Below, one piece after another: positions 24,911 through 45,000 of a stretch of DNA of 64,000 nucleotides (the stretch's first letter is position 1; the number at the start of each line of letters is the position of its first letter). The translations under genes were made by a program, and so were the position numbers. Source of the stretch: Candidatus Cloacimonadales bacterium (GTDB lineage: Bacteria > Cloacimonadota > Cloacimonadia > Cloacimonadales > JAFGVF01); the NCBI GenBank assembly GCA_963677815.1, contig OY782499.1, positions 202,347 to 266,346 of the forward strand, given 5' to 3'. The notes under the pieces are model-generated. The model was not told the DNA's origin. It worked only from the letters and a program-made list of their open reading frames with translations, and ran no database searches.

Positions 24911-27900
24911 TTATTGTCTTCTAAATCCTTTAGCAGCTAATTCTGGAGCACCACTATTAGATCCTTTTACTCTGAAGAATTTCATTGAATCACTTGCAGT
25001 AATTGTAGTTGTTAAGCCTTCAACATTTTCTACAAATACATATTCACCATCAGGAGTATCGCACGCATATACATTATAAGAAGTAGCATTAGCAGCAGCT
25101 TCCCATGATAATGTTATTGCAGCACCATCATTAGCGATAGCGAAGTTAACAGGAACTTCAGGGTCTGGAAGAGCAGTTTCTGCAGTATTAATTGTTAAAG
25201 TGAAATCACCATTATTACTAGAATATCCAGAAACTACGATGTAATATTCACCAGCAGGAGATACTGTTTCTAACATTTCAGACCAGGTAGCTCTATCTCT
25301 TGATTTAGCTCTATTTCCACCTGTACTTGCACTACTTTGATCATCATTATAATACCATGCGTCACTATTAACAGTAGCTTCATCAATTTGTTGGTAAGAG
25401 TTGAATACCCATAGTTTGGTATCCCAAGATGTACCATCTAAAGAAATACTCATCAACTTGTCAGTTGGAAGGGTCAATTTATAAACAACAGATTGAGATG
25501 TACAGAAATCATAACTTTCGTTATAAGGTGTAGTTGTATTGTTTTCAACTATAGTTTCAGCTAAAGTAAGAGTGATAGGGTCATTATGATCATCACCTTG
25601 AGGTAAAACAAAACCTTCACCACTTAAAGCAACTTCATTAACACCTCTGTTATTACTAGTGTTTTTAGCAGCAGTATTAACTCTAAATGTTCTATTTAGA
25701 TCATCAGTAATTTGAAGAGTAGCTACTCTTGAACCTTCAGCACTTGGAGTAAAATCAAGAGTAATAACTAGTGATTGGTCTTCACCAAGAGCCATAGAAG
25801 CTTCAGGATCTGTAGAATAAGCAAAGTCATCAGCATTATCACCAACGATTTCTATAGTAGAGATATTAAGAGTTCCCACACCAATATTAGAGATAGTAAC
25901 ATTATCTGAAGCAGTCTGACCTACATTTACTATACCGAAATCTATTTCGGAAGCATTTAGAGATGCTACTGGAGTAGATGCTGGTTCTCCAAAGTAGATA
26001 TTATCAATATCGAACCAATAGTCATTTACACTATCATCTAACATTTCAAATCTAAAGATTACTGATTGACCTGCAAAAGCAGAAATATCAGTAGTGAATG
26101 TAGTGAAATCAGCAGTATCAGTGTGGTCAGTACCATTTACAGAAGCAATCGGATTGAAAGTTGCTCCATTATCTGTAGATGCAGTAATAGTAAGGTAATC
26201 ATGTCCATCAACTGAAGTGATACCAACAGTACCTGCTGACCAGTTTGTAAGTCTGTAATCTAGAGTAATCTCAGCTAAAGCATTAATATTATTCATAGAT
26301 TGGAATTGAATATAACCATTACTAGCAGTACTATAAATGTTTTTATACATTACATTACCAACTGTGTTATGCTGATCTGTTCCAATAATGAAATTGTGAT
26401 CAGTTATTGCTTGTGGAATTGAAGTTGAACCTTCAAAATCTACCATAATTGGCATTGGCATTGTAGGGTCAGGAACAGTAGTAAATGACCACACTTCAAT
26501 ACCTTCAGTAGCTTGACCAACAACATTATAAGGAACAACTTTCCAGTAGTAAGTTGTTTCATAATCTAAACCACTATAAGCATAAGAAGTAGCTGTTTGA
26601 TCCACAGGTGTCATACCAGCAAATGTTTGGTCTGTTGAGAAATAAACATAATATCCTGTAGCACCTGTAGCAGTTTGCCATGTTAAGTTACCATTAAGGG
26701 CAATATCACTAGCTTCATTAGCAGGAGCAGTATAAGTAACAGCATCAGGAGCTTGACCAACTGTAGTAAATGTCCAAGTTGCTACTAATGTATCTGTAGT
26801 TTCACCAGTGTAGTTGCGATTTATAACTTTCCAAGCGTATTCTGTGCTTGGATCTAAATTGGTAACAGCATATTCTTCAACAGCAGCTACATCATCAAGA
26901 ACAAGAGCCATTTCTCTTGCACCTGTAGTACCGAAATATAAGTCTATAGTTTCAGTATAATCAGCATTAGTCCATTCTAATGTTAAAGCAGTTGCTTGAT
27001 CAATAGCTTGGTTAGCAGGACTTGGATTTGTTGCAGCTTCTGGAAGAGGTAATGCATCAGCTGTTAAGTTGATTGTATAATCAACACTTTGAGGTGAAGG
27101 ATAGCTAGAAATAATTAAGAAATAAGTTCCAGCTGGAATCATCTCATTTGTATAAGTTAAGGTATTTCCTGAAGAAGACTTAGTTAAAAGAACTTCAGCA
27201 GGAGTATCTACATTAGGTTCATTTTCAAGGATAAAAGCACCCATCCAAGAACCTGTTGTAGTGATAGTACCATTAAGTAACATTGTATTTGCTAAGGTAA
27301 ACTGATAAACTACATCATCACCATTCATATATGATGAAGTTGGAGTAATCCAAGTTGATGAATAATCATCACTATAGTCTGCAGTATTACCAGTAATTTC
27401 TTCAGCAGGGAAGGTTAAAAGAAGAGGATTAGCACAGGTAGAACCTTGTGGAATCGGAATACCTGTTCCAGTAAGAGCAACTTCATGATTAATTGGCACG
27501 AAAGGATTACTTGGATCAGATTCTTTTACAACTAGATTACCTGCATAAATCATTTCAGCTTGTGGGGTAAAAGTTACCTCAACATCAAATGATGAACCCA
27601 CTTCTAAAGTATATGGGGTCACGATTGCTGTATCATAAGAGTATCCAGCAGGAGTTTCAAATTCTGTAATAGTAGCTGCAATTGATCCATTATTTGAAAC
27701 AGTAAATGTTTGACTTGCTTCAGTAGCTAGGAAAACTTCACCAAAATCATGAGAATCAGGAGAAACTTGAACTAAAGTTCCTTGAGGAATCTCTTCTAAA
27801 GTCAAATCATCAATATAAACATATTGATATGTTGAGGAGAAAGATGATTTGAAAGCAATTCTTTCATTAGCTCTAACAGGACTAACCATATCAATACTAT

Positions 27901-29749
27901 ATTCAGCATAAGTAGTGGTCAAATCTAGAGTATCTATGGCAGTAAAATTATCCATAGTTTGATTGTATTTACCAAGTATTAATGTTGGAGTACCTGATCT
28001 TTTTGCCCAGAATCTAAGTCTATAAGCATCCATATCTGGAACAACTACTGGAGATATTAATTCTGCAGTAGCAGAAGTATCATTATAATTATAGACTCTA
28101 TAAGAATATGTACCAGCATGAGCTGAGTAAGATGAAGAATATCTTCCAGCAGTTGCTGAAGAAGATGTTGAGGTTAAGTTACTTGTCCAACCTAAGAATC
28201 CTTCTTCAGTTTCGAAGTCTTGAGTATAAGGAATATTAATTTCATAGATATTAGTATCAATACCATTACCTGAAAGAGCTATTTCATATACTTCTCTTGT
28301 TAAATCATCTGTGATTTGAAGAGTAGCACTTTTCTCGCCAGCACTTGTAGGATTGAAAGTAACTTCAATTAATAAGTCTTCTGTAGCAGCAAGAGCGTAA
28401 TCTTCACTATCTGTATAGCTAAATTGATCAGCATCAGTACCAGTTATTGAAATATCAGTAATATTAAGTGTTCCACCACCAATATTTTGGATTGATACTA
28501 TTTCAGAATCTGAAGCTTCATTTAAAGAAACTGTACCAAAAGCGATTGGGTCTGTGTTGATTTCTACGATTGGTGTAGCAGGAATTTCTTCCACGGTAAC
28601 ATTATCAATATAAACTGAATAACCATCATCGTCGATCATTCTGAAAGCAATAGCTTGATTTCCACTATAACCTTCTAAGCTGATTATTTGTTCTGTCCAT
28701 GCTGAAGGCATATTTGTTCCAGCTACATAAGATGCTATTTCAGTTGAAAAATCACTAGCACCTGTATAAGCATCTGCAATTTGTAATTGTAAATCAGTTC
28801 CTGCAGAAGTAGATCCTTTTAGCCAGAATTTTAGTCTGTATGAAGTTGAGGCATCTAAATCAAAAATTGGAGTGATTAGTAATTGTTCTCCACCTGCTGA
28901 TGCCCAAGGACCTCTTGCACAAGCTAAACCACTTTGTGGAGATGTTGTATATCTTAACCATACATTGCTACCAGAAACAGAGATTTGTCCCCATCCGGCA
29001 GGAGCTGCAGGACTACCTATCCAAGTATCTTCAAATCCTTCATTGTATGGGAATTCTGTAATAGCACCAAATTCTGTAGTAAAAGAACTTACATCACTTG
29101 ACATTTCTATTGCAGTAGGACCTACAGCTACAACTTTCCAGAAGTAGCTAGTGCCATTGTTTAATGAACTTGTGTATGGAGAAGTAGCAGGATTTACGAT
29201 AAGAGCATCAGTAAACTCAGCATTATCAGCAAGATATAATACAGCATAATCTGTAATTTCATCAGTTGTCCATTCTAAATTTGCATTAATAGCAACATTG
29301 ATTGCACCATTTTCAGGTGAGACTAAAAGAGGAGCATCTGGTGTGCCTGCTGGTGGATTGTAGAATACATCTACACTTAGTACTAGTGTGCTTGAATCAC
29401 CATAATTATCCAAATCCTCTGTAGTAGCTGTAACAGTGAGACCATTAGGTCCTAGAGTATTTAAATCAGAATAGCTTTGAGCTGATAACCAGCCAACTGA
29501 AGGATAATCTGTTCCATTTATATTTAAATGAATATCATACCAGTTGCCTATATATGATTCTGTACCAAAAGAAGTTGTAATTTGAATATCTGTAATTTCT
29601 GAGCCTTCAGGAATTCCAGTTGTTGTTATTGTTGAAACTACAGGATCTTCATCTGCCCCATAGTTTGAATCAGAAAAATTAATACTTTCAGCCATAATAA
29701 AGCTGAAACTTAAAACAAATAGCATTAAGGCTAATATCGTTTTTTTCAT
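24911..29749 (-). CDS. giant secreted multidomain surface protein P1 (Fn3-like, MAM/anchor-J-like, Ig-like, PPC-like domains; class-B C-terminal domain)
   Basis: The start is reassigned to ATG at 29749 (MKKTILALMLFVLSFSFIMA signal peptide, RBS AGGGAGA); the ORF-track start at 29860 lacks both. The protein has repeated Fn3-like modules (..YFWKVVAV, ..YYWKVVPYN), Ig-like modules (FG.V..G....V.I.N.G.G.LNI..I...G.DA..F) and PPC-like modules (GEYYIVVSGYSSNNGDFTLTIN). Confidence 0.85.
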   Translation of the reverse strand: MKKTILALMLFVLSFSFIMAESINFSDSNYGADEDPVVSTITTTGIPEGSEITDIQITTSFGTESYIGNWYDIHLNINGTDYPSVGWLSAQSYSDLNTLGPNGLTVTATTEDLDNYGDSSTLVLSVDVFYNPPAGTPDAPLLVSPENGAINVAINANLEWTTDEITDYAVLYLADNAEFTDALIVNPATSPYTSSLNNGTSYFWKVVAVGPTAIEMSSDVSSFTTEFGAITEFPYNEGFEDTWIGSPAAPAGWGQISVSGSNVWLRYTTSPQSGLACARGPWASAGGEQLLITPIFDLDASTSYRLKFWLKGSTSAGTDLQLQIADAYTGASDFSTEIASYVAGTNMPSAWTEQIISLEGYSGNQAIAFRMIDDDGYSVYIDNVTVEEIPATPIVEINTDPIAFGTVSLNEASDSEIVSIQNIGGGTLNITDISITGTDADQFSYTDSEDYALAATEDLLIEVTFNPTSAGEKSATLQITDDLTREVYEIALSGNGIDTNIYEINIPYTQDFETEEGFLGWTSNLTSTSSSATAGRYSSSYSAHAGTYSYRVYNYNDTSATAELISPVVVPDMDAYRLRFWAKRSGTPTLILGKYNQTMDNFTAIDTLDLTTTYAEYSIDMVSPVRANERIAFKSSFSSTYQYVYIDDLTLEEIPQGTLVQVSPDSHDFGEVFLATEASQTFTVSNNGSIAATITEFETPAGYSYDTAIVTPYTLEVGSSFDVEVTFTPQAEMIYAGNLVVKESDPSNPFVPINHEVALTGTGIPIPQGSTCANPLLLTFPAEEITGNTADYSDDYSSTWITPTSSYMNGDDVVYQFTLANTMLLNGTITTTGSWMGAFILENEPNVDTPAEVLLTKSSSGNTLTYTNEMIPAGTYFLIISSYPSPQSVDYTINLTADALPLPEAATNPSPANQAIDQATALTLEWTNADYTETIDLYFGTTGAREMALVLDDVAAVEEYAVTNLDPSTEYAWKVINRNYTGETTDTLVATWTFTTVGQAPDAVTYTAPANEASDIALNGNLTWQTATGATGYYVYFSTDQTFAGMTPVDQTATSYAYSGLDYETTYYWKVVPYNVVGQATEGIEVWSFTTVPDPTMPMPIMVDFEGSTSIPQAITDHNFIIGTDQHNTVGNVMYKNIYSTASNGYIQFQSMNNINALAEITLDYRLTNWSAGTVGITSVDGHDYLTITASTDNGATFNPIASVNGTDHTDTADFTTFTTDISAFAGQSVIFRFEMLDDSVNDYWFDIDNIYFGEPASTPVASLNASEIDFGIVNVGQTASDNVTISNIGVGTLNISTIEIVGDNADDFAYSTDPEASMALGEDQSLVITLDFTPSAEGSRVATLQITDDLNRTFRVNTAAKNTSNNRGVNEVALSGEGFVLPQGDDHNDPITLTLAETIVENNTTTPYNESYDFCTSQSVVYKLTLPTDKLMSISLDGTSWDTKLWVFNSYQQIDEATVNSDAWYYNDDQSSASTGGNRAKSRDRATWSEMLETVSPAGEYYIVVSGYSSNNGDFTLTINTAETALPDPEVPVNFAIANDGAAITLSWEAAANATSYNVYACDTPDGEYVFVENVEGLTTTITASDSMKFFRVKGSNSGAPELAAKGFRRQ

Positions 29750-29927
29750 ATTTTCTCCCTTAATTAATGTGCGTTTTACACTCAAATTTGCATAAAACAC
29801 TGTTGTTTGTAATTTGCTAGTAAATCTGAGGGGGATTGTGTAGTGTGCGTGGTGATGCATTTTAATGGTGCAAGCCCCTACAGCCCTAACTCATTACAAT
29901 GTAATTATTTATAAAATACATGTTATT

Positions 29928-30209: not shown

Positions 30210-33200
30210 TTAGTTTCTTCTACCGAATCTTTTAGCAGGGCTAATAGTATCAGTTGAAGCTTTAACGCTATAGAATTTCATCATATCAGTAGCAGTGAAG
30301 GTATGAGTTAAACCATCAACAGCTTCGATGAATACAAATTCACCATCAGGTGTATCACAACCGTAGATATTATAGGAGTTTGCATTAGCAGCGGCATCCC
30401 AAGTCAAGGTTATAGAAGCACCATCATTAGCGATAGCGAAGTTAACTGGTACATCAGGATCTGTTACTGCAGGTTCGCCGAAGTAGATATTATCAATATC
30501 GAACCAATAGTCATTTACCTCATCATCAGTCATTTCAAATCTGAAGATTACTGATTGACCAGCATAAGCAGAGATATCAGCAGTGAATGTTGCGAATTCA
30601 GCTGAATCTACATGATCAGTACCATTAACTGCATCAACTGGGTCAAATGTAGCTCCATTATCTGTTGAAGCATAAATATTTAAGTATTCATGTCCTTCAA
30701 CTGAAGTGATACCGACAGTACCAGCTGACCAGTTTGTCATTCTGTAATCTAATGAAATTACTGAAGTAGCAGTAATGCCATTCATTGCTTGGAACTGAAT
30801 ATATCCATTTGATGAAGAGCTATAGATATTCTTATACATAACATTACCTACTGTATTATGTACATTAGTTCCTATTGAGAAGTTTTCAGAAGTAATAGCT
30901 GCAGGATTAGCAGTTGTTCCTTCGAAGTCGATTGTTACAGGCATTGGCATTGTTGGGTCAGGAATTGTAGTAAATGACCATACTACAATACCTTCAGTAG
31001 CTTGACCAACAACATTGTAAGGAATAACTTTCCAATAGTAAGTTGTTTCGTAGTCTAAACCACTAAATGCATAGCTAGTTCCAGCTTGATCTTCAGGAGT
31101 TACACCAGCAAATGTTTCATCTGTTGAGAAATAAACATAATAGCCGTTAGCACCTGTTCCAGCTTGCCATGTTAAGTTACCACTAAGAGCAACGTCTGTT
31201 GCAGTGTCAACAGGAGCTGTATATGTTACAGCTTCAGGAGCAGAACCAACAGTTGTGAATGTCCAAGTTACAACAGAATCAGCAATTGTTTCTCCAGTAT
31301 AGTTACGGCAAACAACTTTCCAGCTATACTCTGTATTAGCATCAAGATCAGTAACAGCATATTCTTCAACAGCAGCTACATCATCAAGAACAAGAGCCAT
31401 TTCTCTAGCACCTGTAGTACCGAAATATAAGTCTATAGTTTCAGTATAATCAGCATTAGTCCATTCTAATGTTAAAGCAGTTGCTTGATCAATAGCTTGG
31501 TTAGCAGGACTTGGATTTGTTGCAGCTTCTGGAATAGGTAATGCATCAGCTGTTAAGTTGATTGTATAATCAACACTTTGAGGTGAAGGATAGCTAGAAA
31601 TAATTAAGAAATAAGTTCCAGCTGGAATCATCTCATTTGTATAAGTTAAGGTATTTCCTGAAGAAGACTTAGTTAAAAGAACTTCAGCAGGAGTATCTAC
31701 ATTAGGTTCATTTTCAAGGATAAAAGCACCCATCCAAGAACCTGTTGTAGTAATAGTACCATTAAGTAACATTGTATTTGCTAAGGTAAATTGATAAACA
31801 ACATCATCACCGTTCAAATATGATGAAGATGGACTAATCCAAGTTGATGAATAGTCATCTAAGAAGTCAACAGTATTACCTGTAACATCAACAGCAGGGA
31901 AAGTTAATGGTAAAGGATCACTACAAGTAGAACCTTGTGGTGGTAACCAACCTGTACCTGTAAGAGCTACTTCATTAACAGCTCTTGATGTATTTGCAGC
32001 TTTAGATGAATAAGAAACTCTTACATTTCTAGCTAAATCATCAGTGATTGCTAAAGTAGCTTCTTTTAAACCTAAGGCATCAGGAGTAAAGGTAACTGTA
32101 ATAGCTAATGATTCACCATTTTCCAGAGCCATATCAGGTGTTTCTTCAACATATTCCCAAGCGAAAAGACCAGCATCAGTACCTGTAATTCCAACATTAG
32201 AAATGTTAAGAGTTCCAGGACCAACATTAGTAATTGTAACTTCTTCAGCTACTGATGTAGTTGCAACTTCAATTTCTCCGAAATCAATCGCATTTGTGCT
32301 CAATTCAGCTACAGGAACAAGTGGAGTTGCTTCGAAAGTTATGTTATCTAAATATACATAATCATAAGTAGTAGCAAATACAGGAATGAAAGCAAATCTT
32401 TCATTACCAGTAGTTGTTCCTTCAAATTCGATAGTTGTTTGCTCATAAGTTAATGGAACAGCAAAAGTATCTATTGCTGTTAATATAGTCATATCACTAT
32501 CCCATTTTGCTAGGATAATTTCTGAATCTATTGTACCTTTTGTCCAGAATCTTAATCTGTATCCGTCCATATCAGGAACAAGGTTTGGTGCAATTAATTG
32601 TAGATTTGCAGTAAGGTCTCCTGAGTTATAGAATTGGATAGCTGTTGAACCATCTTGAACATTTGTTGTACTGGTATTCAATGTTATTCCAGCATAATCT
32701 GGTGATGTTGTTTCAATGATTGTTGACCAACCTAAAAGAGAGCCTTCAAAAGATTCATTCCATGGTAGGTCAGTAGCATAGATGTTAGTATCAACTGAGT
32801 TACCAACTAGTTCTACAACATTAACTACACGAGCTTGGTCATCAGTAATTTCTAATTGTGCTGTATGGTCACCTTCATTATTTGGTGAATAAACAACTCC
32901 AACTGAAATGTTTTCTGTGATTTCAAGACTTGCAGGATAAGTATTATTATCTGTTAGAATAAACTGATCAGCATTTGTACCAACAATTTCTATATTAGTA
33001 ATACCTAGTGTTCCTAAACCAAGATTTGAAATAGTCAAAGTTTGAGAATCACTATCAGTGCCCATTATTTGATCTGTAAATGTTAATGTATCAGCACTTA
33101 CGGTGAAAACAGGATCAGCTGAAACTTCTTCGTATGTAAATCCTGAAACAGGTCTGAAAGCTTTAAGAGTACCTGAAGGTACAGAAGTTGGGAATGTAGT

Positions 33201-36134
33201 AACATAATTTGTTCCATCACTTCTAACAGTCAGAGATTTGTTATCAGCTAGAGAATAGTTATAGAATTCATCTGAACTTGAGTGAAAACCAGACTCGGTT
33301 GCAAAGAATAATACTAATAAGTTATCAGTATTGTTATATACGAATGGAGTAGCAAGGTCTATAGTCACAATTGGATTTGTTGTATCAACAGTCATAGTTC
33401 CACTATAAACATGAGTAAAACCATCAAGTTCCCAATCATATGTATCAGCAAAACTATCTTTAGTAGTATGTTTCATATAAACTTCAATAGTTTCTGACCA
33501 TGCTGAGTTGTTATTATAAAGATAAGAGATTGAAGAAATAGCTGAATCATCTATGTCAAGCTCTTCTTGAAGATAGATATTTTGAGTCATTGTGTAACCA
33601 TAATATGGTTCCATTGGCATACCGTGGTTAACACTTCTAACTCCATCAAATACTAAATCAGCATCTGGGAATGGTGAAAGACCAGTTGTAAATGACCAGA
33701 CCACAATACCTTCAGTTGGTTGACCTACTACATTATAAGGCACAACTTTCCAGTAGTATGTAGTATCATAATCACCAGAGTAAGCATAAGTTGTTTCTGC
33801 TTGGTCTACAGGAGTAACACCAGCGAAAGTCTCGTCAGTTGAGAAATATACATAATAACCATCTGCACCTGTGGCAGCATTCCATGTTAAGTTACCATTT
33901 AAAGCTTGATCAGTGGCTTGGTCAGCTGGAGCTGTATAAGTTGTAGCTTCTGGAGCTGTACCTACAGTGTTAAAGGACCAAGTTTCAACTGAATCAGCAG
34001 GAGTTTCACCCATATAGTTACGATTTACTATTTTCCATTCATACTCAGTAAGAGTTAATAAACCTGTAACCTGATATTCATCTACCACTGGAATATCATT
34101 TTCAACCATGACCATTGAACCAGCTTCACCAAAATAAATATCTATTGTTTCAGTGTAATCAACATTGTCCCAAGTCAAAGTAAGAGTAGAAGGTTGATCT
34201 ACTGCATCATCAGCTGGGAATGGGTTTGTTGCACCATCAGTTGGAGCAGGAATAGATTCAGAATTGATAGTCATAATAAATTCACCTGAATTTGTATTGT
34301 AACCAGAAACAACTATATAGTAATCACCAGCTAAAGCAAATGAAGGATTCATTTTTGACCATACTGCTCTATCTCTTGCTTTTTCTCCATCATTGAATCT
34401 ACTTCCACCTGTACCAGCACTTGATTCATCATCATTATAGTACCAAGCATCAGTGTTTTGAGTAGCATTATCAATTTGTTCGAATGAATTGAATACCCAA
34501 AGTTTGGTATCCCAAGTAGTTCCTTCTAAAGAAATATCAAGAATCTTTGCTTGAGGTAAAGTAAGTTGATATACAACTGAAGGACTTGAACAGAAATCAT
34601 AAGTATTGTTATAAGGTGCTGTTGTGTGTTCTTCAATAATTTCATTTGCTAATGTTAGAACAAATGGATTATTGTGATCATCACCTGTAGAATCTAAAAC
34701 TTCAACAGTTAAAGCAACATCATGATTAATTGGCACAAAAGGATTTCCTGGATCAGTTTGTTTGAATCTTAAAGAAGATGTATGTGTACCAATAAGGGTT
34801 GTAAGAGGCTTCACAGCAACAGAAATTGATGCTTGTGGTTCCAAAGTTACAGGATAAGTATTTTCATCAATTAATTGGAAATAACTTGTATTTAAAATTG
34901 AAGTTTCAGTAATTTCAGCAGAAACTCCACCAACATTTGAGATTGTTACAGTAGTAGGAGTAGCTGTTGTGTCTTGATACATCAATCCACCAAAATCAAC
35001 AGTTTCTGGTATAAGATTAATAATAGCTTCAGTAGGTACCTCTTCAATATTAACATCATCTAAATAAATTGATCTGTAAGTTCCACCAAATCCATGCTTG
35101 AAAGAAACATGATCTTCTGCACGGTCACCTGGTAAATCAACTATATATTGAGTGTAAGTAGTTGTTAAGCTTAAAGAATCTAATCTTGTAAAAGTTGCCT
35201 CATCAGTAGCATCAGTCATAGTCCCAACATAAAGAATAGTACCAGCAGTACTTCCCTTAGCTGAGAATCTAACTCTATTACCAGCATTCTCAACTTTTGG
35301 AGTAGAACCGATAATGTCTCCTGTAGAAACTGAACTGTTATATATTTTATAAGAGTTTTCTCCACTTAAAGCATTTGAATTATCTACTTCAGCATAAGTG
35401 TAAGAATTACCTGTATTGTCTAAACTTATCCAACCAGGAGCTTGTTCTCCATCTTCGGAATTATCAAAATTCTCTAAATAAGGAACACTTGCAGTGCCAT
35501 ATTCAGATGTGAAAGACCAAACTGCTGTTTCTGTTTCTAAGGCAGTTGCACTTACAGCAACAACTTTCCAATAGTAAGTTGTATTTAAAGCTAAAGTTGG
35601 ACTATATGGAGATGTAGCAGGATCTACCATTATAGCATCAGTTAATTCAGCATTATCAGCTATATATAAAACTGCGTGATCTGTGTTATCACCAGTTGTC
35701 CATTCTAAAGTTGCATCTATAGCAACGTTGACTGCACCATTTGCAGGACTAGTTAAAACTGGTATGCTTGGAGAACCAGCTTGTGGCACAGTATAAGATA
35801 CATTACCTGGTGTAACTCCACCTTGACCTGATTCAGCAACAACAATACCTAATTCATTCTTAATTTGGTATTCGTTTTCAGTTGACCATGAACCAGCAGT
35901 ATAGACTGTTGATAATTCATGTCCAGGTTCTATAGCAAAGGTATGTGATTCAGGACCGTTTCCATCTTCAATTGTTAAATTCTCTAAAACAGGTGAGCCA
36001 TCAACGTTGACAGTTACTGAACCACCGTTCCAGCCATCACCATAGGAATCTACTAATTCGATTGTATAATCTAAAGCAAATACACTTGTTATCATTAAAA
36101 CACTTAGCAAAAGAGCTAATATAGTTTTTTTCAT
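30210..36134 (-). CDS. giant secreted multidomain surface protein P2 (paralogue of P1/P3; class-B C-terminal domain)
   Basis: Start at ATG 36134 (MKKTILALLLSVLMITSVFA, RBS GGGAGA). The N-terminal YGDGWNGG module is shared with P3. The Fn3-like, Ig-like and PPC-like modules are shared with P1 and P3 in a different order. Confidence 0.85.
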   Translation of the reverse strand: MKKTILALLLSVLMITSVFALDYTIELVDSYGDGWNGGSVTVNVDGSPVLENLTIEDGNGPESHTFAIEPGHELSTVYTAGSWSTENEYQIKNELGIVVAESGQGGVTPGNVSYTVPQAGSPSIPVLTSPANGAVNVAIDATLEWTTGDNTDHAVLYIADNAELTDAIMVDPATSPYSPTLALNTTYYWKVVAVSATALETETAVWSFTSEYGTASVPYLENFDNSEDGEQAPGWISLDNTGNSYTYAEVDNSNALSGENSYKIYNSSVSTGDIIGSTPKVENAGNRVRFSAKGSTAGTILYVGTMTDATDEATFTRLDSLSLTTTYTQYIVDLPGDRAEDHVSFKHGFGGTYRSIYLDDVNIEEVPTEAIINLIPETVDFGGLMYQDTTATPTTVTISNVGGVSAEITETSILNTSYFQLIDENTYPVTLEPQASISVAVKPLTTLIGTHTSSLRFKQTDPGNPFVPINHDVALTVEVLDSTGDDHNNPFVLTLANEIIEEHTTAPYNNTYDFCSSPSVVYQLTLPQAKILDISLEGTTWDTKLWVFNSFEQIDNATQNTDAWYYNDDESSAGTGGSRFNDGEKARDRAVWSKMNPSFALAGDYYIVVSGYNTNSGEFIMTINSESIPAPTDGATNPFPADDAVDQPSTLTLTWDNVDYTETIDIYFGEAGSMVMVENDIPVVDEYQVTGLLTLTEYEWKIVNRNYMGETPADSVETWSFNTVGTAPEATTYTAPADQATDQALNGNLTWNAATGADGYYVYFSTDETFAGVTPVDQAETTYAYSGDYDTTYYWKVVPYNVVGQPTEGIVVWSFTTGLSPFPDADLVFDGVRSVNHGMPMEPYYGYTMTQNIYLQEELDIDDSAISSISYLYNNNSAWSETIEVYMKHTTKDSFADTYDWELDGFTHVYSGTMTVDTTNPIVTIDLATPFVYNNTDNLLVLFFATESGFHSSSDEFYNYSLADNKSLTVRSDGTNYVTTFPTSVPSGTLKAFRPVSGFTYEEVSADPVFTVSADTLTFTDQIMGTDSDSQTLTISNLGLGTLGITNIEIVGTNADQFILTDNNTYPASLEITENISVGVVYSPNNEGDHTAQLEITDDQARVVNVVELVGNSVDTNIYATDLPWNESFEGSLLGWSTIIETTSPDYAGITLNTSTTNVQDGSTAIQFYNSGDLTANLQLIAPNLVPDMDGYRLRFWTKGTIDSEIILAKWDSDMTILTAIDTFAVPLTYEQTTIEFEGTTTGNERFAFIPVFATTYDYVYLDNITFEATPLVPVAELSTNAIDFGEIEVATTSVAEEVTITNVGPGTLNISNVGITGTDAGLFAWEYVEETPDMALENGESLAITVTFTPDALGLKEATLAITDDLARNVRVSYSSKAANTSRAVNEVALTGTGWLPPQGSTCSDPLPLTFPAVDVTGNTVDFLDDYSSTWISPSSSYLNGDDVVYQFTLANTMLLNGTITTTGSWMGAFILENEPNVDTPAEVLLTKSSSGNTLTYTNEMIPAGTYFLIISSYPSPQSVDYTINLTADALPIPEAATNPSPANQAIDQATALTLEWTNADYTETIDLYFGTTGAREMALVLDDVAAVEEYAVTDLDANTEYSWKVVCRNYTGETIADSVVTWTFTTVGSAPEAVTYTAPVDTATDVALSGNLTWQAGTGANGYYVYFSTDETFAGVTPEDQAGTSYAFSGLDYETTYYWKVIPYNVVGQATEGIVVWSFTTIPDPTMPMPVTIDFEGTTANPAAITSENFSIGTNVHNTVGNVMYKNIYSSSSNGYIQFQAMNGITATSVISLDYRMTNWSAGTVGITSVEGHEYLNIYASTDNGATFDPVDAVNGTDHVDSAEFATFTADISAYAGQSVIFRFEMTDDEVNDYWFDIDNIYFGEPAVTDPDVPVNFAIANDGASITLTWDAAANANSYNIYGCDTPDGEFVFIEAVDGLTHTFTATDMMKFYSVKASTDTISPAKRFGRRN

Positions 36135-36538
36135 AATGTTTTTCTCCCATAACATTCTTAGTGTTATATCGTTTTTTTGGGTGTAACATATAATAGGAAG
36201 TGTTGAAAAATATCTACAAGTCGGACGCTTATGATTACTGTGGTGATGTAATCAAAAGCGTACCAGACATTGTCTTACGAATATTCTTAAAACTTCTCAA
36301 TGTGCTGTTACAAATTTAATTTTACTTACATAGGTGCTCTAGTTAATTGTTTGTTTGTTATGAGAATTACAGTGGTGAAGTAATTTCTCATCAACAATTT
36401 TCTTTGCACCATAGTCTCTTAATCTTCAGTTTCAATCAGTGTTTGGCTACTTTCTTATATAGTAGTGTGGTGGCATCTCATATTAGTGTAGCCCAACGTG
36501 ACCAAAGTAAAGATCTATTTCTCATTAATTCTAAGTAC

Positions 36539-36568: not shown

Positions 36569-36694
36569 TATCTTTTTTTTAGATTTTACTTTTTTTCTCA
36601 ATTTTGCCACAATTACTGAATTATCATTAGTTAAAGATGAAATGCAAATATGTGGATATGACTTGCATTTTAACATGTAACTCGGGATTGCTCT

Positions 36695-36974
36695 AACTGG
36701 GAACGCGGGATTCCAGCCCGCTAACTGGGAACGCGGGATTCCAGCCCGCTAACTGGGAACGCGGGATTCCAGCCCGCTAACTGGGAACGCGGGATTCCAG
36801 CCCGCTAACTGGGAACGCGGGATTCCAGCCCGCTAACTGGGAACGCGGGATTCCAGCCCGCTAACTGGGAACGCGGGATTCCAGCCCGCTAACTGGGAAC
36901 GCGGGATTCCAGCCCGCTAACTGGGAACGCGGGATTCCAGCCCGCTAACTGGGAACGCGGGATTCCAGCCCGCA
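36695..36974 (+). repeat. perfect head-to-tail tandem array of a 28-bp REP unit (AACTGGGAACGCGGGATTCCAGCCCGCT), 10 units, no spacers
   Basis: Units start at 36695, 36723, 36751, 36779, 36807, 36835, 36863, 36891, 36919 and 36947. Nine are identical 28-mers, and the tenth runs into the REPIN at 36947. Confidence 0.98.
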
Positions 36975-37056
36975 CCACGTACTTCTGTACGTGGTTATTC
37001 TTGAGAAGTCCAGCACTAACGTGCTGGACGCGGGCAGGATGCCCGCATTCCCAGTT
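36947..37056 (+). repeat. 110-bp REPIN-like composite element, copy B
   Basis: Structure is AACTGGGAACGCGGGattccagCCCGC, then hairpin CCACGTACttctGTACGTGG, a spacer, hairpin CCAGCACtaacGTGCTGG, then GCGGGCaggatGCCCGCATTCCCAGTT. The termini are inverted REPs. Confidence 0.95.
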
Positions 37057-37078
37057 AGGAGGATGCCTATTCCCCCAG

Positions 37079-37639: not shown

Positions 37640-37735
37640 ATTAACCTCCTACCTTGTTATTTTATCTAAGTAAAAATATATGTAAATAGTTATAATCCTG
37701 TCAACTGTAATTCTTTTTGGATTTTAGCTGGAAAT

Positions 37736-37986: not shown

Positions 37987-40050
37987 TTACTTAATTTTTA
38001 CAATCTTGAAGTTCTTAGTTTGTGTAGGAGAAGTCATTCTTACAAAGTAGATACCATTAGCAACTTTCTTGTTGTTAAGGTCTCTGCCGTTGAATTCAAA
38101 GTTATGTTCACCAGCATTAAATGATTCTCTTCTTACAACTTGACCTAAAAGGTTGTAGATAGTTACAGTTGCAGTTTCGCCTTCTTTAACTCTTACAGTT
38201 GTAGAAGTAGATTCTGTGAAAGGTGAAGGACCGAAGTTACGGAAAGTAGTTTCTGTGATACCAGGAACTACAGGTTCATCTTCAACTGTTACAACGATAG
38301 GACCATGGAAAGAGTTTTCGTTACCTAATTCAGCAACTTCTAACCAGTAGTAGTAAGTTGTAGATTCAACTTCGCTATCTGTATAAGTGTAAGTTTGTGT
38401 TTGAGTTTGGTTAGCAGGAGCAACCATTGTAGGGTTGATTCTGATAGCTTGATCTTGGTTATCAGTTTCTGCTCTATATACATTATAACCTTGTAAGTTA
38501 CTTTCTGATTCAGTTACCCATTTTAATGTAACATATTCATTAGCATGTGCTTGAGCTGTGAATGATGAAAGTTCTACAGGAAGGCTAGGCTCTGTGATAA
38601 TAATATCAACAGGATCTTTAGCACCATCATAATTGATAGTAACAGTTACAACGCCACCAGGGAAAGCTGCATCATATTGATATACACCATCAATATATAG
38701 AGCACCCTGTAAGATGTTTGTTACAAATGTAAATACATATGTACCATTTACAGTTGGATTAACAGTTGCACCAAAGTTGAATGCACCAGCAAGTGGGAAA
38801 TTCTCGGAGAAATTTCCTGGTTCAGCAAATGGTGCTGGGACTGGAGGAGTAAATCCTGCAGGTGTTCCACCAGTAAATGTAACCTGTACTTGTACTTCTA
38901 CATTGTTAGGATTGTTATCGCCAGGAACTACCACAGGTGCTTCATCTTCATAGACAGCAGTAGTAGTGAAAGTACTAGTGTTCATTGTACCTTCGTTTGG
39001 ATATCTCTTAGGAGTAATTCTTTGAGCTTTTGAAGATTTCTTTCCAGCAGGAACGATATAAGGTTTTACACCCCATGTATATTCTGTGTTATAATCTAAC
39101 TCATAATCAAGAGTATATGTCATAACAGCTACATCTGCAACCATGTTCATATCTTCTCCAACAACACCAATATATAATTCATAACCAGTAGCAGCAGGAC
39201 CATCATAAGTCCATGTGAATTCTGGCATAAGAGCTACATCAGTTGCTTCATTTTCAGGAGTAGCATTAGTTGCCCAAGTTGGGTAAACTATTGGAGCTGC
39301 TTCAGTTGTAAATGACCATACAGGTGCATCACCTTCAGGATAAGTTTTGTCGCCACCTGGCATGTCATCCCATACAAATGGTTCAATTTTCCATTCATAT
39401 TCAGTTGAGTAAGCTAAATTAGGAACTTCAATTGAAAGTTCATTCCAATCACTTGCAGGGTTCATCCAATCAACAGCACCAACTGTACGATAATAGAAAT
39501 CATATAAGTCTGGTGTTGAACCTTCTGGATTTGCCCAGGTTAAAGTAACTGTAGTAGCTACACCAGTTGCATCATCTAATGGTGAAACAACAGTACACCA
39601 TTCTGGAGCTACGGGACCTGCAGGTCCGCCCCATGCGATTACGTCTGCATGAGTATGTTGGTCAGCACCTAATTTTGCTACATCTACAGGACCATATTCG
39701 TTACCATCTGCATCTATAAACCAAAATCTAGCGAGTGTACCAAAAACACCCCAGTTTGATAAAGGAGACATCTGAATATTCAATTTACCATCAATTTCAG
39801 AGTAAACAGTATTGTTTGTATTCTGATCCGCTTCTTCAGGCCAGTTCCAGTAAAGAACAGGGTTAGGAGCCCACATTTCTCCACCAAAACCTGCATTATA
39901 TTGGCAAGCTTTGAAACCAATAGTACCATTAGCGTGAAAATCTCCACCCTCTGTTGTAGTGTTAAAAATCAATAGATAAGGTGGTGCAATTTGAGCTAAT
40001 AATCCAAATACACTCAGTAATAATAAAGATACAATTAATAATTTTTTCAT
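37987..40050 (-). CDS. secreted Fn3-repeat protein P5 with T9SS type-A C-terminal sorting domain
   Basis: Signal peptide is MKKLLIVSLLLLSVFGLLAQ. There are three Fn3-like modules (..EYEWKIEPF, ..EYTWGVKPY). An LPVELSSFTA...YYYWLEV module is followed by the CTD ..TVTIYNLLGQVVRR...NGIYFVRMTS...KIVKIK. Confidence 0.85.
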   Translation of the reverse strand: MKKLLIVSLLLLSVFGLLAQIAPPYLLIFNTTTEGGDFHANGTIGFKACQYNAGFGGEMWAPNPVLYWNWPEEADQNTNNTVYSEIDGKLNIQMSPLSNWGVFGTLARFWFIDADGNEYGPVDVAKLGADQHTHADVIAWGGPAGPVAPEWCTVVSPLDDATGVATTVTLTWANPEGSTPDLYDFYYRTVGAVDWMNPASDWNELSIEVPNLAYSTEYEWKIEPFVWDDMPGGDKTYPEGDAPVWSFTTEAAPIVYPTWATNATPENEATDVALMPEFTWTYDGPAATGYELYIGVVGEDMNMVADVAVMTYTLDYELDYNTEYTWGVKPYIVPAGKKSSKAQRITPKRYPNEGTMNTSTFTTTAVYEDEAPVVVPGDNNPNNVEVQVQVTFTGGTPAGFTPPVPAPFAEPGNFSENFPLAGAFNFGATVNPTVNGTYVFTFVTNILQGALYIDGVYQYDAAFPGGVVTVTINYDGAKDPVDIIITEPSLPVELSSFTAQAHANEYVTLKWVTESESNLQGYNVYRAETDNQDQAIRINPTMVAPANQTQTQTYTYTDSEVESTTYYYWLEVAELGNENSFHGPIVVTVEDEPVVPGITETTFRNFGPSPFTESTSTTVRVKEGETATVTIYNLLGQVVRRESFNAGEHNFEFNGRDLNNKKVANGIYFVRMTSPTQTKNFKIVKIK

Positions 40051-41819: not shown

Positions 41820-42001
41820 AACTGGGAAGGGGGATTCCCAGTTATTTAAGAGAAGAGCGGGCTGGAATCCCGCATTCCCAGTTAGCATAGCAAAAGCCCC
41901 GCTTTCGCAGGGCTTTTTAATTTATTTGAGTGTGCCGGCAAGGATGCCGGCGCTCCCAGTTATTTAAGAGAAGAGCGGGCTGGAATCCCGCATTCCCAGT
42001 T
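41820..42001. repeat. REP cluster abutting the P4 stop codon
   Basis: It contains a collapsed palindrome AACTGGGAAGGGGGATTCCCAGTT and three reverse REPs, including the stem variant GCCGGCAAGGATGCCGGC. The last REP ends in ..CCCAGTT, and its final TT plus the next A form the P4 TAA stop on the minus strand. Confidence 0.95.
41893..41916 (-). terminator. probable terminator of P4 (after two REPs)
   Basis: GC hairpin AAAGCCCCGC-tttc-GCAGGGCTTT. The T-run is short on the minus strand (TTTTG) and longer on the plus strand. Confidence 0.5.
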
Positions 42002-45000
42002 ATTTAGCAGGAGTGAAGGCATCAGTAGATGCTTCAATCTTGAAGAATTTCATATTATCAGCTCCGTCATTAGTATATGAGTTAGTACCTACAGTTTGGA
42101 TTAATTCAAATCCACTATCAGGGTTCATAGAACCGTATACTTTATAGGAGTTAGCATTGGTAACTTCTTCCCAAGTAATTACGATACCTGTAGCTTCTTT
42201 AACAATAGAAGTAATTACAGGTGTAGCAAGTTCAGTCACACCACCACCAGCTATGATATCATCTGCATCACGTGGGTTAAGACCATATTGGTTATAAGAA
42301 TAATCCACGACACCTGTGATAGAAGTAAATGTGTCGTTTACTGAAGCTGCAGGAATAAGTTCAAAGATACCATTATCAATTTGAGCATCACCTGAGCCAT
42401 CAGTAACAAACCATTCATCATTACTATTAGCAGCGGTTGTAACAGTTAAGTTTTCAATCTTCACTAAAACACCTTCATAGGCTTCGTTAGAAGCTAAATC
42501 TGCAGTAGTAACTACAAGCGGTTCAGGAAGAGTGTTTCCTTGAGAGACAACTTGGAAGTCTGTTACAGTCTTTAGTTCAGTCCAACCATAGTATTCATCT
42601 ACAGTAGCACGGAATGAAACAATGTCACCTAGACTAGGGCTGTTTGTAGAATCATAAACATAAATACCATTCCAAGCACCACCTTGAGGAGCCGAGATAA
42701 AGTATCTTGAACCTGCATAATTAGTAGCAGTTACGATACCTTCTACAAGAACATCTTGTCCGTCATAAGGAGAAGGATAAGTTCCATCGCCAGCTTCAGT
42801 AGTATATTGAATATCATAGATAGGTGTAGGAAGAACTTCATTAGCAATACCTGTTAAGTCAATAATTACATCATCGAAACCATCAGCAGAATGAGTAATC
42901 TGACCATAAACAGTTCCAGCATTAGTAGCATTGAATTTAACGTTGATAGTAACTTCTTCTTCTTGTAATTCGAAGAAGAAATCAGAACCCCAAGCACCAT
43001 CTGGGTCTTGGATTTGGAAATCGCCAGTTACTTCTACAAGTCCTAAATCAACGCCTTGCATATAAAGGACGTAAGATTGACTAGCAGATTCTACACCAAC
43101 TTCTGTTTCAAAGGTCATAGCAGTTTTTGATATGTTAAGACCGTCTTCATAACCAGTCACTTCTTGGATTTCAGAAGCGAAGCGAGAAGTTAGTTGAGAT
43201 GTACCTTGATATTCAATAGCCAGACCAGTCACATTAAGGTTATTAGCAGAAATGTCTGAACCAATATAATCAGCTTCAGAGAAATTAGTTCTGAAGACAA
43301 GGTTATTAGTTCCATCTGTTAAGGTGTAGTTTTGGCCAGAAGCGAAAGTACCAGTTTCAACAAATGTAACACCTTGGACTGTTACCACTTGTGATTCATA
43401 AGCGTTGAAGTTAGTATTTAAGTCTGCAATAGTAACTACAATAGGAGTAACAGTATTTCCTGTTGAAGTAGCAGGGTCGCTATTTACAGAAGGTACAAAT
43501 TGAAGAGTTCCGTTATATTCAGTAAGAGAACCTTCAAGATTAGTGATACCATCATAGAGGTTATAAGTAGTAGTTATAACTCCAGAGTTATCATCAATTA
43601 GAATACCTGCAGTAGCATCTTGGATATATTTTTGATTACGAGAAGTTCTTTGGTAAGTTAAGATAGCTTCCCCAGTTAATCTATAGATAGTACCATCAGT
43701 GAGCCCTGCTCTTAAGTCAGCAATAGTAGCAACTTCAGTAACAGCTGAGAAAGTGAAGTCTGCAGAAACTACAGGACTATTTAGATAACCTTCTTTCATA
43801 GCAATAGCTTGGATAGTAGCATCAGCACTTAAGCTAAATGGAGCTGAATAAAGTGTTGAAGCATCAGTAGGTGTATCACCATTAGTAGTGTAATAGATTG
43901 AGGCACCAGCAGTTTCACAGGTAAGTGTAACATCTATTGGATTTTCGAAATTTCCACCATTAGGAGAGATTACAGGACTAGCAACTACTTCCATTGGTTC
44001 AGTGTGAGAACCAAGATATGAGAAGGTATCACTTGGATAAACAATCCACTGTGAATCTTCAGGAGAAGTTCCAGCAGAAGCTGTCCAATCAGTAGTACCC
44101 TGAGTAACAGTCATCTTTCTAACAAGAGTATGGTTAGCAGTAGCTCCAGTATCTCCAGCTACTTCCCAAGTAGAACCAGGGTCAACAGTTGGAGTACCAA
44201 AGACATCAATAAGGATACCATTATAGAAGAGACCAACTGCATCATCACCATTAAAATAAGTAACGTTACTTGTTTCATCTGCTATGGCAAGAATTGAAGC
44301 ATCGGCTGAAGCATTAGCTATAACATAAACATCACCGGATGCAAGTGTACCTTGCATATCAGAAGTATTACCCCAGTCACCACCATTAGAAGCTAATCTT
44401 ACAGTATAAGGAGTTAAATCAACATCCGCTCCAGTACCATTATAGATTTCAACAGCTTTATTATTAGAAGAACCTTCAATATATTCAGAAATAATCATAC
44501 CTGTAGGGACAATAATCTCTTCGATAGTGATTACAGATTCAGCAATAGAGCTATCAAGCCAGTCAGTTTTAACAGCCATAGCTTTAACAGTAGTAGTAGC
44601 ATCAACAGTGAAAGGTGTAGTATATTCACTTGATCCAGTAGTTGGGTCATTACCATCTATAGTATAATAGATAGTTGCACCATCGGTTGCACAAGTGATA
44701 GTAACTTCTTGGCTTTCATAGTAAGTTCCTGTTGCTGGAGCGATTTCAGGAGTAGCAACTGTTGAAGGACCAGCTAATTCTGTAAAATCAGCAAGGTTTC
44801 TAGCAACAATTTGAGGACTTCCATTATATTCAGCAACATAAGCGACCACATCTAAACCACTAGTAAAGATAGCCTGTCCAATATAATCAGCTTCAGAGAA
44901 AGAAGTTCTGAAGGTTAAGTTATCAGTACCATCAGTGAGTGTATAGTTTGTATTTGCTGCAAAAGTACCTGCTGAAGAGAAGTTTACACTTTCTAGTTTA

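What the first reader, a model, noticed from the sequence alone, without database searches (positions are those of the whole stretch)
24911..25168. Two mutually exclusive C-terminal domain classes among paralogous giant proteins: canonical T9SS CTD versus a conserved Fn3-like 'class B' terminus
P3 (58129-58401) and P5 (37987-38244) end in a canonical T9SS type-A sorting domain (YPNPFNPSTTISF...VYNIKGQLVRRV...GIYF...K).

P1, P2 and P4 instead end in a different conserved ~75-85-aa domain at 24911-25168, 30210-30467 and 42000-42233. P1 reads ..AITLSWEAAANATSYNVYACDTPDGEYVFVENV...MKFFRVKGS. P2 reads ..SITLTWDAAANANSYNIYGCDTPDGEFVFIEAV...MKFYSVKAS. P4 reads ..VITWEEVTNANSYKVYGSMNPDSGFELIQTV...MKFFKIEAS. 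Each is followed by a short tail containing P/A-A-K (..AAKGFRRQ, ..PAKRFGRRN, ..TPAK).

P2 and P3 share N-terminal and internal modules, so the CTD has been swapped between paralogues. The class-B terminus could be an unrecognised sorting or anchoring signal, either a variant T9SS CTD or a signal for a different attachment system.
Basis: partly seen in the sequence, partly recalled or inferred. Interest (0 to 1): 0.6.

Follow-up and report, generated by a model that had tools for sequence, protein, structure and literature searches.

The report
Truncated Fn3 end-domain replacing T9SS tail
Three giant secreted proteins of this Cloacimonadales bacterium end in an unannotated, lineage-specific, shortened fibronectin-III domain that always sits at the very C-terminus, in the position where sister proteins carry the type IX secretion tail, so it is a good but untested candidate for a new surface-sorting signal.

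Summary
P1, P2 and P4 end in a related ~70-aa domain plus a short tail. P3 and P5 end in a canonical T9SS type A CTD (TIGR04183/PF18962).

The class-B domain is not a diverged T9SS CTD. hhalign gives 0.8% probability against type A CTDs, and Pfam and NCBIfam give no A/B-type hit at E<=10. It is a bacterial Fn3 (hhalign 99.1%; PDB 3MPC E 2e-7; Foldseek top hits are Fn3). It stops after strand F, so the FG loop and G strand are missing. Two AlphaFold models show six strands and a disordered tail.

Generic relatives are internal tandem Fn3 repeats in many phyla. The class-B subfamily behaves differently. It comprises about 60 loci, mostly Cloacimonadota in the genome scan, plus 17 database proteins. 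At >=60 bits it is always at the extreme C-terminus. It occurs on at least 15 unrelated passenger clusters that carry Sec signal peptides. It never shares a protein with a T9SS CTD, and it repeatedly alternates with one between paralogues. One carrier is a gingipain-like C25 peptidase, where class B sits where RgpB has its CTD.

The tail is variable (2-46 aa), basic and disordered. The 'PAK' motif is restricted to a few clades.

A sorting or anchoring role, most likely T9SS-linked, is the best reading but is unproven.

The parts
24962..25168 (-). P1 class-B core: Fn3-like strands A-F, '..PDPEVPVNFAIANDGAAITLSWEAAANATSYNVYACDTPDGEYVFVENVEGLTTTITASDSMKFFRVKG'
   Evidence: Sequence. a3.hmm scores 98.7 bits. 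hhalign to bacterial Fn3 gives 99.1%.
24914..24961 (-). P1 tail 'SNSGAPELAAKGFRRQ' (16 aa, basic); stop codon at 24911-24913
   Evidence: The equivalent tails are disordered in the AF2 models.
24911..29860 (-). P1, 1649-aa ORF. The likely true start is at 29749 (signal peptide MKKTILALMLFVLSFSFIMA). Contains choice-of-anchor D / Ig-like / Fn3 modules.
30258..30467 (-). P2 class-B core (Fn3-like strands A-F)
   Evidence: 101.8 bits. AF2 model mb6d8c759c88c has pLDDT 84 and six strands.
30213..30257 (-). P2 tail 'STDTISPAKRFGRRN' (15 aa, basic, predicted disordered); stop codon at 30210-30212
30210..36155 (-). P2, 1981-aa ORF. The signal peptide starts at about nt 36134. Paralogue of P1 and P3.
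42030..42233 (-). P4 class-B core (Fn3-like strands A-F)
   Evidence: 92.4 bits.
42003..42029 (-). P4 tail 'STDAFTPAK' (9 aa); stop codon at 42000-42002
42000..50372 (-). P4, 2790-aa ExeM/NucH-type extracellular nuclease. Domains: Endonuclease_1, lamin-tail, CHB_HEX_C_1, DUF5689, PKD.
58141..58398 (+). P3 canonical T9SS type A CTD (aa 1539-1624), the alternative terminus
   Evidence: TIGR04183 E 7.6e-8 and PF18962 E 3.6e-7.
37990..38229 (-). P5 canonical T9SS type A CTD (aa 608-687)
   Evidence: TIGR04183 E 1.1e-10 and PF18962 E 4.5e-7.

Best explanation
The class-B terminus is a C-terminal module found mainly in Cloacimonadota. It derives from an ordinary bacterial Fn3 domain that has lost its FG loop and G strand, leaving an acidic six-strand sandwich. 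It is usually followed by a disordered, K/R-rich tail of 2-46 residues.

I read it as a C-terminal targeting or retention module for Sec-exported surface proteins, used as an alternative to the type A T9SS CTD. The most likely route has three steps. The protein crosses the inner membrane via its signal peptide. The compact C-terminal beta-sandwich is then recognised by the T9SS or one of its shuttle/attachment proteins, as are the mutually unrelated type A, B and C CTDs. The protein ends up on the cell surface.

Shown: the fold and its ancestry, the truncation, the strict terminal position, the signal peptides, the diversity of passengers, the alternation with type A CTDs, and conservation at least as strong as that of the passengers.

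Inferred: that the module is a signal at all, that the T9SS reads it, and what the basic tail does.
For: 1. Position. All 23 class-B loci among the 45 GTDB-genome hits end 0-70 aa after the match (22 labelled Cloacimonadota or 'uncultured bacterium', one Delongbacteria). The other 22 hits, almost all from other phyla, are generic Fn3 repeats, internal wherever the ORF end is visible. In metagenome contigs, 38 of 44 hits found with the neutral pattern [GN]ANSYK[IV]Y are class B and C-terminal. One more is class B but cut by the contig end. The five internal hits are generic Fn3. All 17 database proteins carry it at the end. With the family HMM over all loci, 48 of 49 hits at >=60 bits are terminal. 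The exception, L072, is a terminal domain split by a loop insertion.

2. Cargo. There are at least 15 unrelated passenger clusters. Nearly all complete ORFs have a Sec signal peptide. Passengers are typical surface cargo: choice-of-anchor D/J proteins, an ExeM/NucH nuclease, a Cleaved_Adhesin protein and a C25 peptidase.

3. Substitution for the T9SS CTD. No ORF has both (66 with class B, 31 with a type A CTD). Both kinds of gene sit side by side in 13 loci. Paralogue pairs differ in their terminus in several families: P1/P2 vs P3, L015/L019/L065, L071, and L016 vs P4. L083 has Propeptide_C25, Peptidase_C25 and the C25 Ig domain followed by class B, the position of the CTD in gingipain RgpB. 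A Cloacimonadota C25 peptidase with Por_Secre_tail also exists.

4. Constraint. Termini are 78-90% identical between orthologues, against 44-88% for passenger segments. P1 and L002/L003 keep 84-88% identity in the terminus next to a 30-35% identical adjacent module.

5. Precedent. The T9SS already accepts three sequence-unrelated CTD families, types A, B and C (PMC10202324). Fibrobacter's lineage-specific basic terminal domain has been proposed to be a T9SS signal (PMC6851124).
Against: - No homology to type A CTDs (hhalign 0.8%). No hit to PF18962, PF13585, TIGR04183, TIGR04131 or any NCBIfam model at E<=10.
- The predicted fold has 3+3 strands, not the 3+4 sandwich reported for CTDs, whose last strand is essential (PMC11285876).
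- No T9SS CTD structure appears among the top 50 Foldseek hits.
- No conserved partner gene, such as a PorP/SprF-like neighbour, is found beside class-B genes.
- T9SS core genes were not examined in these genomes. Their presence is only inferred from type A CTD proteins.
- A domain that lacks its last strand can only sit at a chain end, so terminal position alone is weaker evidence than it looks.
- No experimental data exist.
Confidence: 0.45

Rival explanations
1. The module is a non-covalent surface-retention module that does not depend on T9SS recognition. The basic disordered tail, possibly with the exposed edge of the truncated Fn3, sticks the exported protein to anionic envelope material (LPS, capsule, eDNA) or to a surface receptor. 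Outer-membrane passage uses another route.
For: - The tail is K/R-rich (18.8% vs 5.1% in the core). Its net charge is positive in 40 of 59 cases, and it is disordered.
- An unrelated 211-aa secreted protein in the window (40066-40701) ends in a similar basic tail without the domain.
- There is no similarity to any CTD class.
Against: - Seven of 59 members have tails of only 2-3 residues, and 19 have neutral or negative tails. The tail therefore cannot be the essential part.
- No alternative outer-membrane route is evident for 1600-2800-aa proteins.
- The domain occupies exactly the CTD slot in C25 peptidase and choice-of-anchor paralogues.
Confidence: 0.18
2. The domain has no sorting role. 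It is just the last structural module (a cap or spacer) of modular surface proteins. It spread by domain shuffling and is terminal only because a G-strand-less Fn3 cannot be followed by another domain. These proteins would then be exported by some other signal or stay periplasmic.
For: - It is homologous to ordinary Fn3 spacers, which are internal repeats in thousands of proteins.
- The closest solved relative, the CtXyl5A Fn3 (3MPC/5G56), is a structural module.
- No partner gene was found.
Against: - A neutral cap would not be expected to stay 78-90% identical while adjacent modules are replaced.
- It would not be expected on >=15 unrelated passengers with complete avoidance of CTD-bearing proteins.
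- In other phyla, ordinary full Fn3 modules do share proteins with T9SS CTDs (four ORFs).
- Giant signal-peptide proteins of surface-protein families with no other sorting signal would be left unexplained.
Confidence: 0.27
3. The truncated Fn3 is an acceptor for donor-strand complementation. A surface or outer-membrane partner supplies the missing G strand, as in chaperone-usher pilins, and locks the cargo onto the cell.
For: The G strand is missing across the family, and members end 2-3 residues after strand F. This leaves strand F as an open edge.
Against: - AF2 models the six-strand core confidently on its own (pLDDT ~90-95).
- No candidate donor protein or conserved neighbour was identified.
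- This rests purely on structural analogy.
Confidence: 0.08

Closest known systems
T9SS type A C-terminal sorting domain (TIGR04183 / PF18962), e.g. RgpB CTD
   Same: - An extreme C-terminal, ~70-80-aa beta-sandwich.
- Found on Sec-signal-bearing, often giant, surface proteins of an FCB-group bacterium.
- The same passenger families carry it: C25 peptidase, choice-of-anchor D/J, nuclease.
- The two are interchangeable between paralogues.
   Different: - No sequence or profile similarity.
- Fn3 ancestry.
- Six strands instead of the 3+4 seven-strand CTD fold.
- No A/B/D/E motifs.
- Followed by a variable disordered basic tail rather than ending in the last strand.
T9SS type B (TIGR04131 / PF13585) and type C (ChiA-type, cl41395) CTDs
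   Same: They set a precedent: the T9SS reads several sequence-unrelated C-terminal domains (PMC10202324, PMC9143113).
   Different: - No profile hit.
- Type B genes are typically followed by a porP/sprF-like gene. No conserved neighbour is seen here.
Bacterial fibronectin type III modules, e.g. the Fn3 of Clostridium thermocellum CtXyl5A (PDB 3MPC, 5G56)
   Same: Clear homology. hhalign gives 99.1%, the PDB profile search gives E 2e-7, and Foldseek top hits are all Fn3. They share the 'W..V.gA.sY.vY' and 'Y.V.A' motifs.
   Different: - Class B ends after strand F, with no FG loop or G strand.
- It is never internal or tandem.
- It has its own signature: Y-x-[IV]-Y-[AGS]-[CS]-D-x-P-x-G ... K-F-Y-R-V-x-A-[ST].
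- It falls below PF00041 detection.
Fibrobacter succinogenes basic terminal domain (BTD / Fpm-1)
   Same: A lineage-specific, basic C-terminal module on many secreted enzymes of an FCB-group bacterium. It was long discussed as a cell-surface anchor and later proposed to be a T9SS signal (PMC3079729, PMC6851124).
   Different: Some BTDs overlap TIGR04183 annotations (PMC6851124), whereas class B does not. In class B the folded core is acidic and only the tail is basic. The two were not compared at sequence level here.

Membership tests
Fibronectin type III superfamily | Significant profile/sequence similarity to established Fn3 domains | tested here: met
   hhalign vs bacterial Fn3 repeats gives 99.1%, E 6e-19. 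PDB 3MPC scores E 2.2e-7. The profile finds 14,130 Fn3-repeat proteins.
Fibronectin type III superfamily | Seven-strand (A,B,C,C',E,F,G) beta-sandwich | tested here: not met
   AF2 models show strands A-F only, with the tail disordered. The alignment covers template columns 5-78 of 106. Some members end 2-3 aa after strand F.
Fibronectin type III superfamily | Passes the Pfam PF00041 gathering threshold | tested here: not met
   No PF00041 hit for the three termini, even at E<=10.
T9SS type A CTD (TIGR04183/PF18962) | Match to the family profile / motifs A-E | tested here: not met
   No hit at E<=10. hhalign vs 31 type A CTDs from the same loci gives 0.8%.
T9SS type A CTD (TIGR04183/PF18962) | Located at the extreme C-terminus of proteins with an N-terminal Sec signal peptide | tested here: met
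T9SS type A CTD (TIGR04183/PF18962) | Occurs in organisms that encode a T9SS | tested here: inconclusive
   Type A CTD proteins are encoded next to class-B genes in 13 loci, including the window. CTD proteins are reported to track T9SS core genes (PMC10202324). The core genes themselves were not examined.
T9SS type A CTD (TIGR04183/PF18962) | Required for T9SS-dependent export and removed by the PorU sortase | not testable with these tools
   Needs genetics or proteomics.
T9SS type B CTD (TIGR04131/PF13585) | Match to the family profile | tested here: not met
   No hit at E<=10. PF13585 is in the library, since it weakly hits P5.
T9SS type B CTD (TIGR04131/PF13585) | Cognate porP/sprF-like gene adjacent | tested here: not met
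   Window neighbours are ispF, acyltransferases, a RayT-like gene and unknowns. No conserved small neighbour family is found across 60 loci.
T9SS type C CTD (ChiA-type) | Match to the family profile | tested here: inconclusive
   There were no NCBIfam hits of any kind for P1 and P2, and only an irrelevant one for P4. I could not confirm that the type C model is in the library copy.
Sortase-type tripartite C-terminal signals (LPXTG, PEP-CTERM, GlyGly-CTERM) | Short motif + hydrophobic transmembrane stretch + basic cluster | tested here: not met
   Tails are polar and basic with no hydrophobic helix, and many are only 2-9 aa.
Fibrobacter BTD/Fpm-1 | Sequence similarity to the Fpm-1 module | not tested
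The comparison is by description only (PMC3079729, PMC6851124).

The most novel reading that the evidence does not exclude
Class B is a fourth, Fn3-derived class of T9SS cargo signal, or the signal of a separate attachment system, specific to Cloacimonadota and near relatives. In the most novel version, the missing G strand is supplied by a surface partner, so giant enzymes and adhesins are docked to the cell by donor-strand complementation.
Probability: 0.4. Interest if true: 0.75.

Novelty: new variant of a known kind. Interest (0 to 1): 0.6.

Why it matters
Cloacimonadota are abundant, essentially uncultured fermenters in anaerobic digesters and sediments. How they display their very large hydrolases, nucleases and adhesins is unknown.

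If this is a sorting domain, it would let secretome predictions capture proteins that current CTD models miss. In this window that is 3 of 5 giant proteins. It would add a fourth recognition class to the open question of how the T9SS reads unrelated CTDs. It would also show a sorting signal evolving from a common structural domain by losing one strand.

Even if it is not a signal, the family deserves its own profile. Neither Pfam-A nor NCBIfam detects it.

Tried and rejected
- Variant type A/B CTD: rejected. There were no profile hits, and hhalign gave 0.8%.
The first representative search seemed to support it, because the top 150 hits are internal tandem repeats. Those score 35 bits per repeat on average (52 at most). 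True class-B domains mostly score 60-107 bits and are always terminal.
- PAK/basic tail as a conserved motif: rejected as a family feature.
- Sortase-type tripartite signal: rejected, since the tail has no hydrophobic segment.
- Conserved partner gene: none found by clustering neighbours within 5 kb.
- The word-indexed protein search returned only short proteins or fragments (<=196 aa). It was of little use for architecture statistics.
- The exact-match lookup of the window's GuaA found nothing. The organism was instead identified through related loci.
It was redone with 8 sequences.
- Literature searches found no description of this domain.
Full report
**What is in the window.** The window has 34.7% G+C. 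Its closest relatives are complete Candidatus Cloacimonadales chromosomes, OY759729.1 and OY829950.1, which carry the same gene cluster.

Five large ORFs with Sec-type signal peptides lie between 24.9 and 58.4 kb:

| Name | Coordinates | Strand | Length |
|---|---|---|---|
| P1 | 24911-29860 | - | 1649 aa |
| P2 | 30210-36155 | - | 1981 aa |
| P5 | 37987-40050 | - | 687 aa |
| P4 | 42000-50372 | - | 2790 aa |
| P3 | 53527-58401 | + | 1624 aa |

P1, P2 and P3 are mosaics of choice-of-anchor D/J, Ig-like, Fn3 and MAM-like modules. P4 is an ExeM/NucH-type extracellular nuclease with Endonuclease_1, lamin-tail, CHB_HEX_C_1 and PKD modules. The surrounding genes are housekeeping: an Mrp/complex-I-like hydrogenase module, metK, ispF, guaA and regulators.

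**Checking the observation.** P3 and P5 end in a canonical T9SS type A CTD (TIGR04183 E 7.6e-8 and 1.1e-10; PF18962). P1, P2 and P4 do not.

- The last 77-85 residues of P1, P2 and P4 align with each other. P1/P2 are 65% identical and P1/P4 31%. BLASTP gives E 2.7e-13 for P2/P4 and 7.6e-8 for P1/P4.
- A profile of the three finds only these three copies in the six-frame translation of the window, all terminal. Internal Fn3 modules of the same proteins score <=7.6 bits.
- P2 and P3 share their N-terminal module (62% over 199 aa) and a 1231-aa body (46%). They part right after the shared '...FDIDNIYFG' module. The terminus really has been exchanged between paralogues.

**What the domain is.** Scanned alone at E<=10, the three termini hit no T9SS model and not even PF00041. 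A profile of them searched against 1.84 billion representative proteins finds 14,130 proteins. The top 150 are giant proteins with 5-43 internal tandem matches. Inspection shows these are ordinary bacterial Fn3 repeats of the form 'LTW.AV.GATSY.VYRS...TYYY.V.A'.

Several results agree on the classification:
- Profile-profile comparison gives 99.1% probability (E 6e-19) against such repeats.
- The same comparison gives 0.8% against 31 type A CTDs collected from the same loci.
- A PDB sequence search hits the Fn3 module of C. thermocellum CtXyl5A (3MPC E 2.2e-7; 5G56).
- Foldseek with the AF2 model returns only Fn3-type or related Ig-like domains in the top 50, and no T9SS CTD.

So class B is an Fn3 by descent, not a diverged CTD.

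**It is a truncated Fn3.** The family alignment covers columns 5-78 of a 106-column Fn3 template. The FG loop and G strand have no counterpart. Two AF2 models were made: the P2 terminus (pLDDT 84) and database protein P0152 (core pLDDT ~95). Both show six strands (A, B, C, C', E, F), followed by a tail with pLDDT about 40-67 and no regular secondary structure beyond one short helical turn.

Across 59 non-redundant members:
- The tail after 'KFYRV.A' is 2-46 residues long, median 15.
- It has 18.8% K+R, against 5.1% in the core.
- Its net charge is positive in 40 members, zero in 10 and negative in 9.
- The core is acidic, with mean net charge -5.1.
- Seven members end only 2-3 residues after strand F.
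- The P/A-A-K motif is confined to the P1, P2 and P4 orthologue clades and one other locus (L055).

**Positional bias and distribution.**
- GTDB genome scan: 45 loci. The 23 class-B loci (20 labelled Cloacimonadota/Cloacimonadales/Cloacimonetes, two 'uncultured bacterium', one Delongbacteria) all have the domain at the very end of the ORF. Of the other 22 loci, 21 come from other phyla (Bacillota, Bacteroidota, Pseudomonadota and others). They are generic Fn3 repeats, internal wherever the ORF end lies inside the locus.
- Metagenome scan with the neutral pattern [GN]ANSYK[IV]Y: 44 loci. Thirty-eight are class B and terminal. One (L080) is class B but cut by the contig end. Five are generic internal Fn3.
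- All 17 database proteins carry it terminally.
- Family HMM over all 90 loci plus the window: 48 of 49 hits at >=60 bits lie within 45 aa of the stop codon. The exception, L072, is a terminal domain split by a loop insertion. At 40-60 bits, 15 of 17 are terminal. Below 40 bits, the hits are mostly internal generic Fn3.

Two caveats apply. The search patterns were derived from known members. And a domain lacking its last strand may be structurally restricted to chain ends.

**Cargo and relation to the T9SS.**
- Passengers fall into at least 15 unrelated clusters. Nearly all complete ORFs start with a classical signal peptide.
- No ORF combines class B with a type A CTD: 66 have class B, 31 have a CTD, and none have both. 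By contrast, ordinary full Fn3 modules do share proteins with CTDs in four ORFs, three of them in Bacteroidota genomes.
- In 13 loci, including the window, class-B genes and type A CTD genes are neighbours.
- Alternation of the two termini between paralogues recurs in several families: P1/P2 vs P3, L015/L018/L019/L065, L071, and L016 vs P4 modules.
- The most telling case is L083/L084. The architecture is Propeptide_C25, Peptidase_C25, the C25 Ig-like domain and then class B. This matches gingipain RgpB with class B in the place of the CTD (the RgpB architecture is from established knowledge). A Cloacimonadota C25 peptidase with Por_Secre_tail also exists.
- P4 belongs to the ExeM/NucH family. 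The best-matching NCBIfam model is the GlyGly-CTERM-type 'ExeM-GG', a family whose members carry different C-terminal anchors in different lineages (my knowledge of the NCBIfam naming).
- The terminus is conserved at least as well as the passengers: 78-90% vs 44-88% in orthologue pairs. It is kept at 84-88% next to a replaced adjacent module in P1 vs L002/L003.
- No conserved small neighbour gene, such as a PorP/SprF-type partner of type B CTDs, was found.

**Mechanism.** The best-supported reading (confidence 0.45) is that class B is a C-terminal targeting or retention module used instead of the type A CTD, most likely read by the T9SS or its shuttle/attachment proteins. The T9SS already accepts three sequence-unrelated CTD families (PMC10202324). 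Fibrobacter's lineage-specific basic terminal domain was likewise reinterpreted as a T9SS signal (PMC6851124).

| Reading | Confidence |
|---|---|
| Targeting/retention module, most likely T9SS-linked | 0.45 |
| No sorting role (structural cap or spacer) | 0.27 |
| T9SS-independent electrostatic or receptor-mediated retention via the basic tail | 0.18 |
| Docking by donor-strand complementation of the missing G strand | 0.08 |

None of these can be settled with sequence tools alone. The decisive steps are genome-wide profiling against T9SS components, (meta)proteomics for cleavage and localisation, multimer modelling and reporter fusions.

**Novelty.** Pfam-A (2025) and NCBIfam release 20 do not detect the domain. 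Full-text searches found no description of it. I rate it a new variant of a known kind: a C-terminal sorting-type domain of FCB-group surface proteins. Its origin is unusual, being an Fn3 that has lost its last strand. Interest is moderate to high for T9SS and protein-sorting specialists and for secretome annotation of Cloacimonadota. It is tempered by the absence of any functional evidence.

Noticed in passing
window 36637-37065 and 37731-37938, flanking 37079-37639 (-): A tandem array of at least 10 copies of a 28-nt GC-rich unit (TAACTGGGAACGCGGGATTCCAGCCCGC). Inverted copies lie on the other side of a Y1/IS200-like (RayT-like) transposase gene. This is a REP/RAYT-type arrangement between P2 and P5.
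   Followed up: partly
window 40066-40701 (-): A 211-aa signal-peptide protein with two internal ~90-aa repeats and no Pfam hit. It ends in a basic tail (GRNITSKRANARK) resembling class-B tails but has no class-B domain. Basic C-terminal tails may be a wider feature of secreted proteins in this organism.
   Followed up: no
L083 7829-10207 and L084 (metagenome contigs Ga0075123_10000036 / Ga0208771_1001153): A gingipain-like C25 peptidase (propeptide, catalytic domain, C25 Ig domain) ends in a class-B domain instead of a T9SS CTD. L093 carries a C25 peptidase with Por_Secre_tail.
   Followed up: partly
window 29749-29860 and 36134-36155: The mechanically listed ORF starts of P1 and P2 are probably too far upstream. 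The signal peptides (MKKTILAL...) begin at residue 38 of P1 and residue 8 of P2.
   Followed up: no
window 22551-24157 (+); L093 12343-13926: An Acetyltransf_5 (N-acyl amino acid synthase-like) plus acyltransferase gene pair lies next to class-B genes in both the window and the related contig L093. This looks like conserved synteny rather than a functional link.
   Followed up: no
L050-L053, L057, L058 (metagenome loci), last 41 codons of the class-B ORFs: One sub-clade of class-B proteins has a well-conserved 41-aa tail (...SPLLQNYLLNQNKTLNVMNSKVKP). L016 and L052 have a looser version. In this clade the tail itself seems to be under constraint.
   Followed up: no
L091 4630-10576: A small (191-aa) secreted protein with YD/RHS repeats and a class-B terminus sits directly after a 1784-aa RHS/YD-shell protein. 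Several Por_Secre_tail proteins follow it.
   Followed up: no
window 19458-20417 (+): The S-adenosylmethionine synthetase ORF is only 319 aa, and its N-terminal domain match is partial (profile positions 3-70 of 99). It may be a compact variant or a mis-set start.
   Followed up: no
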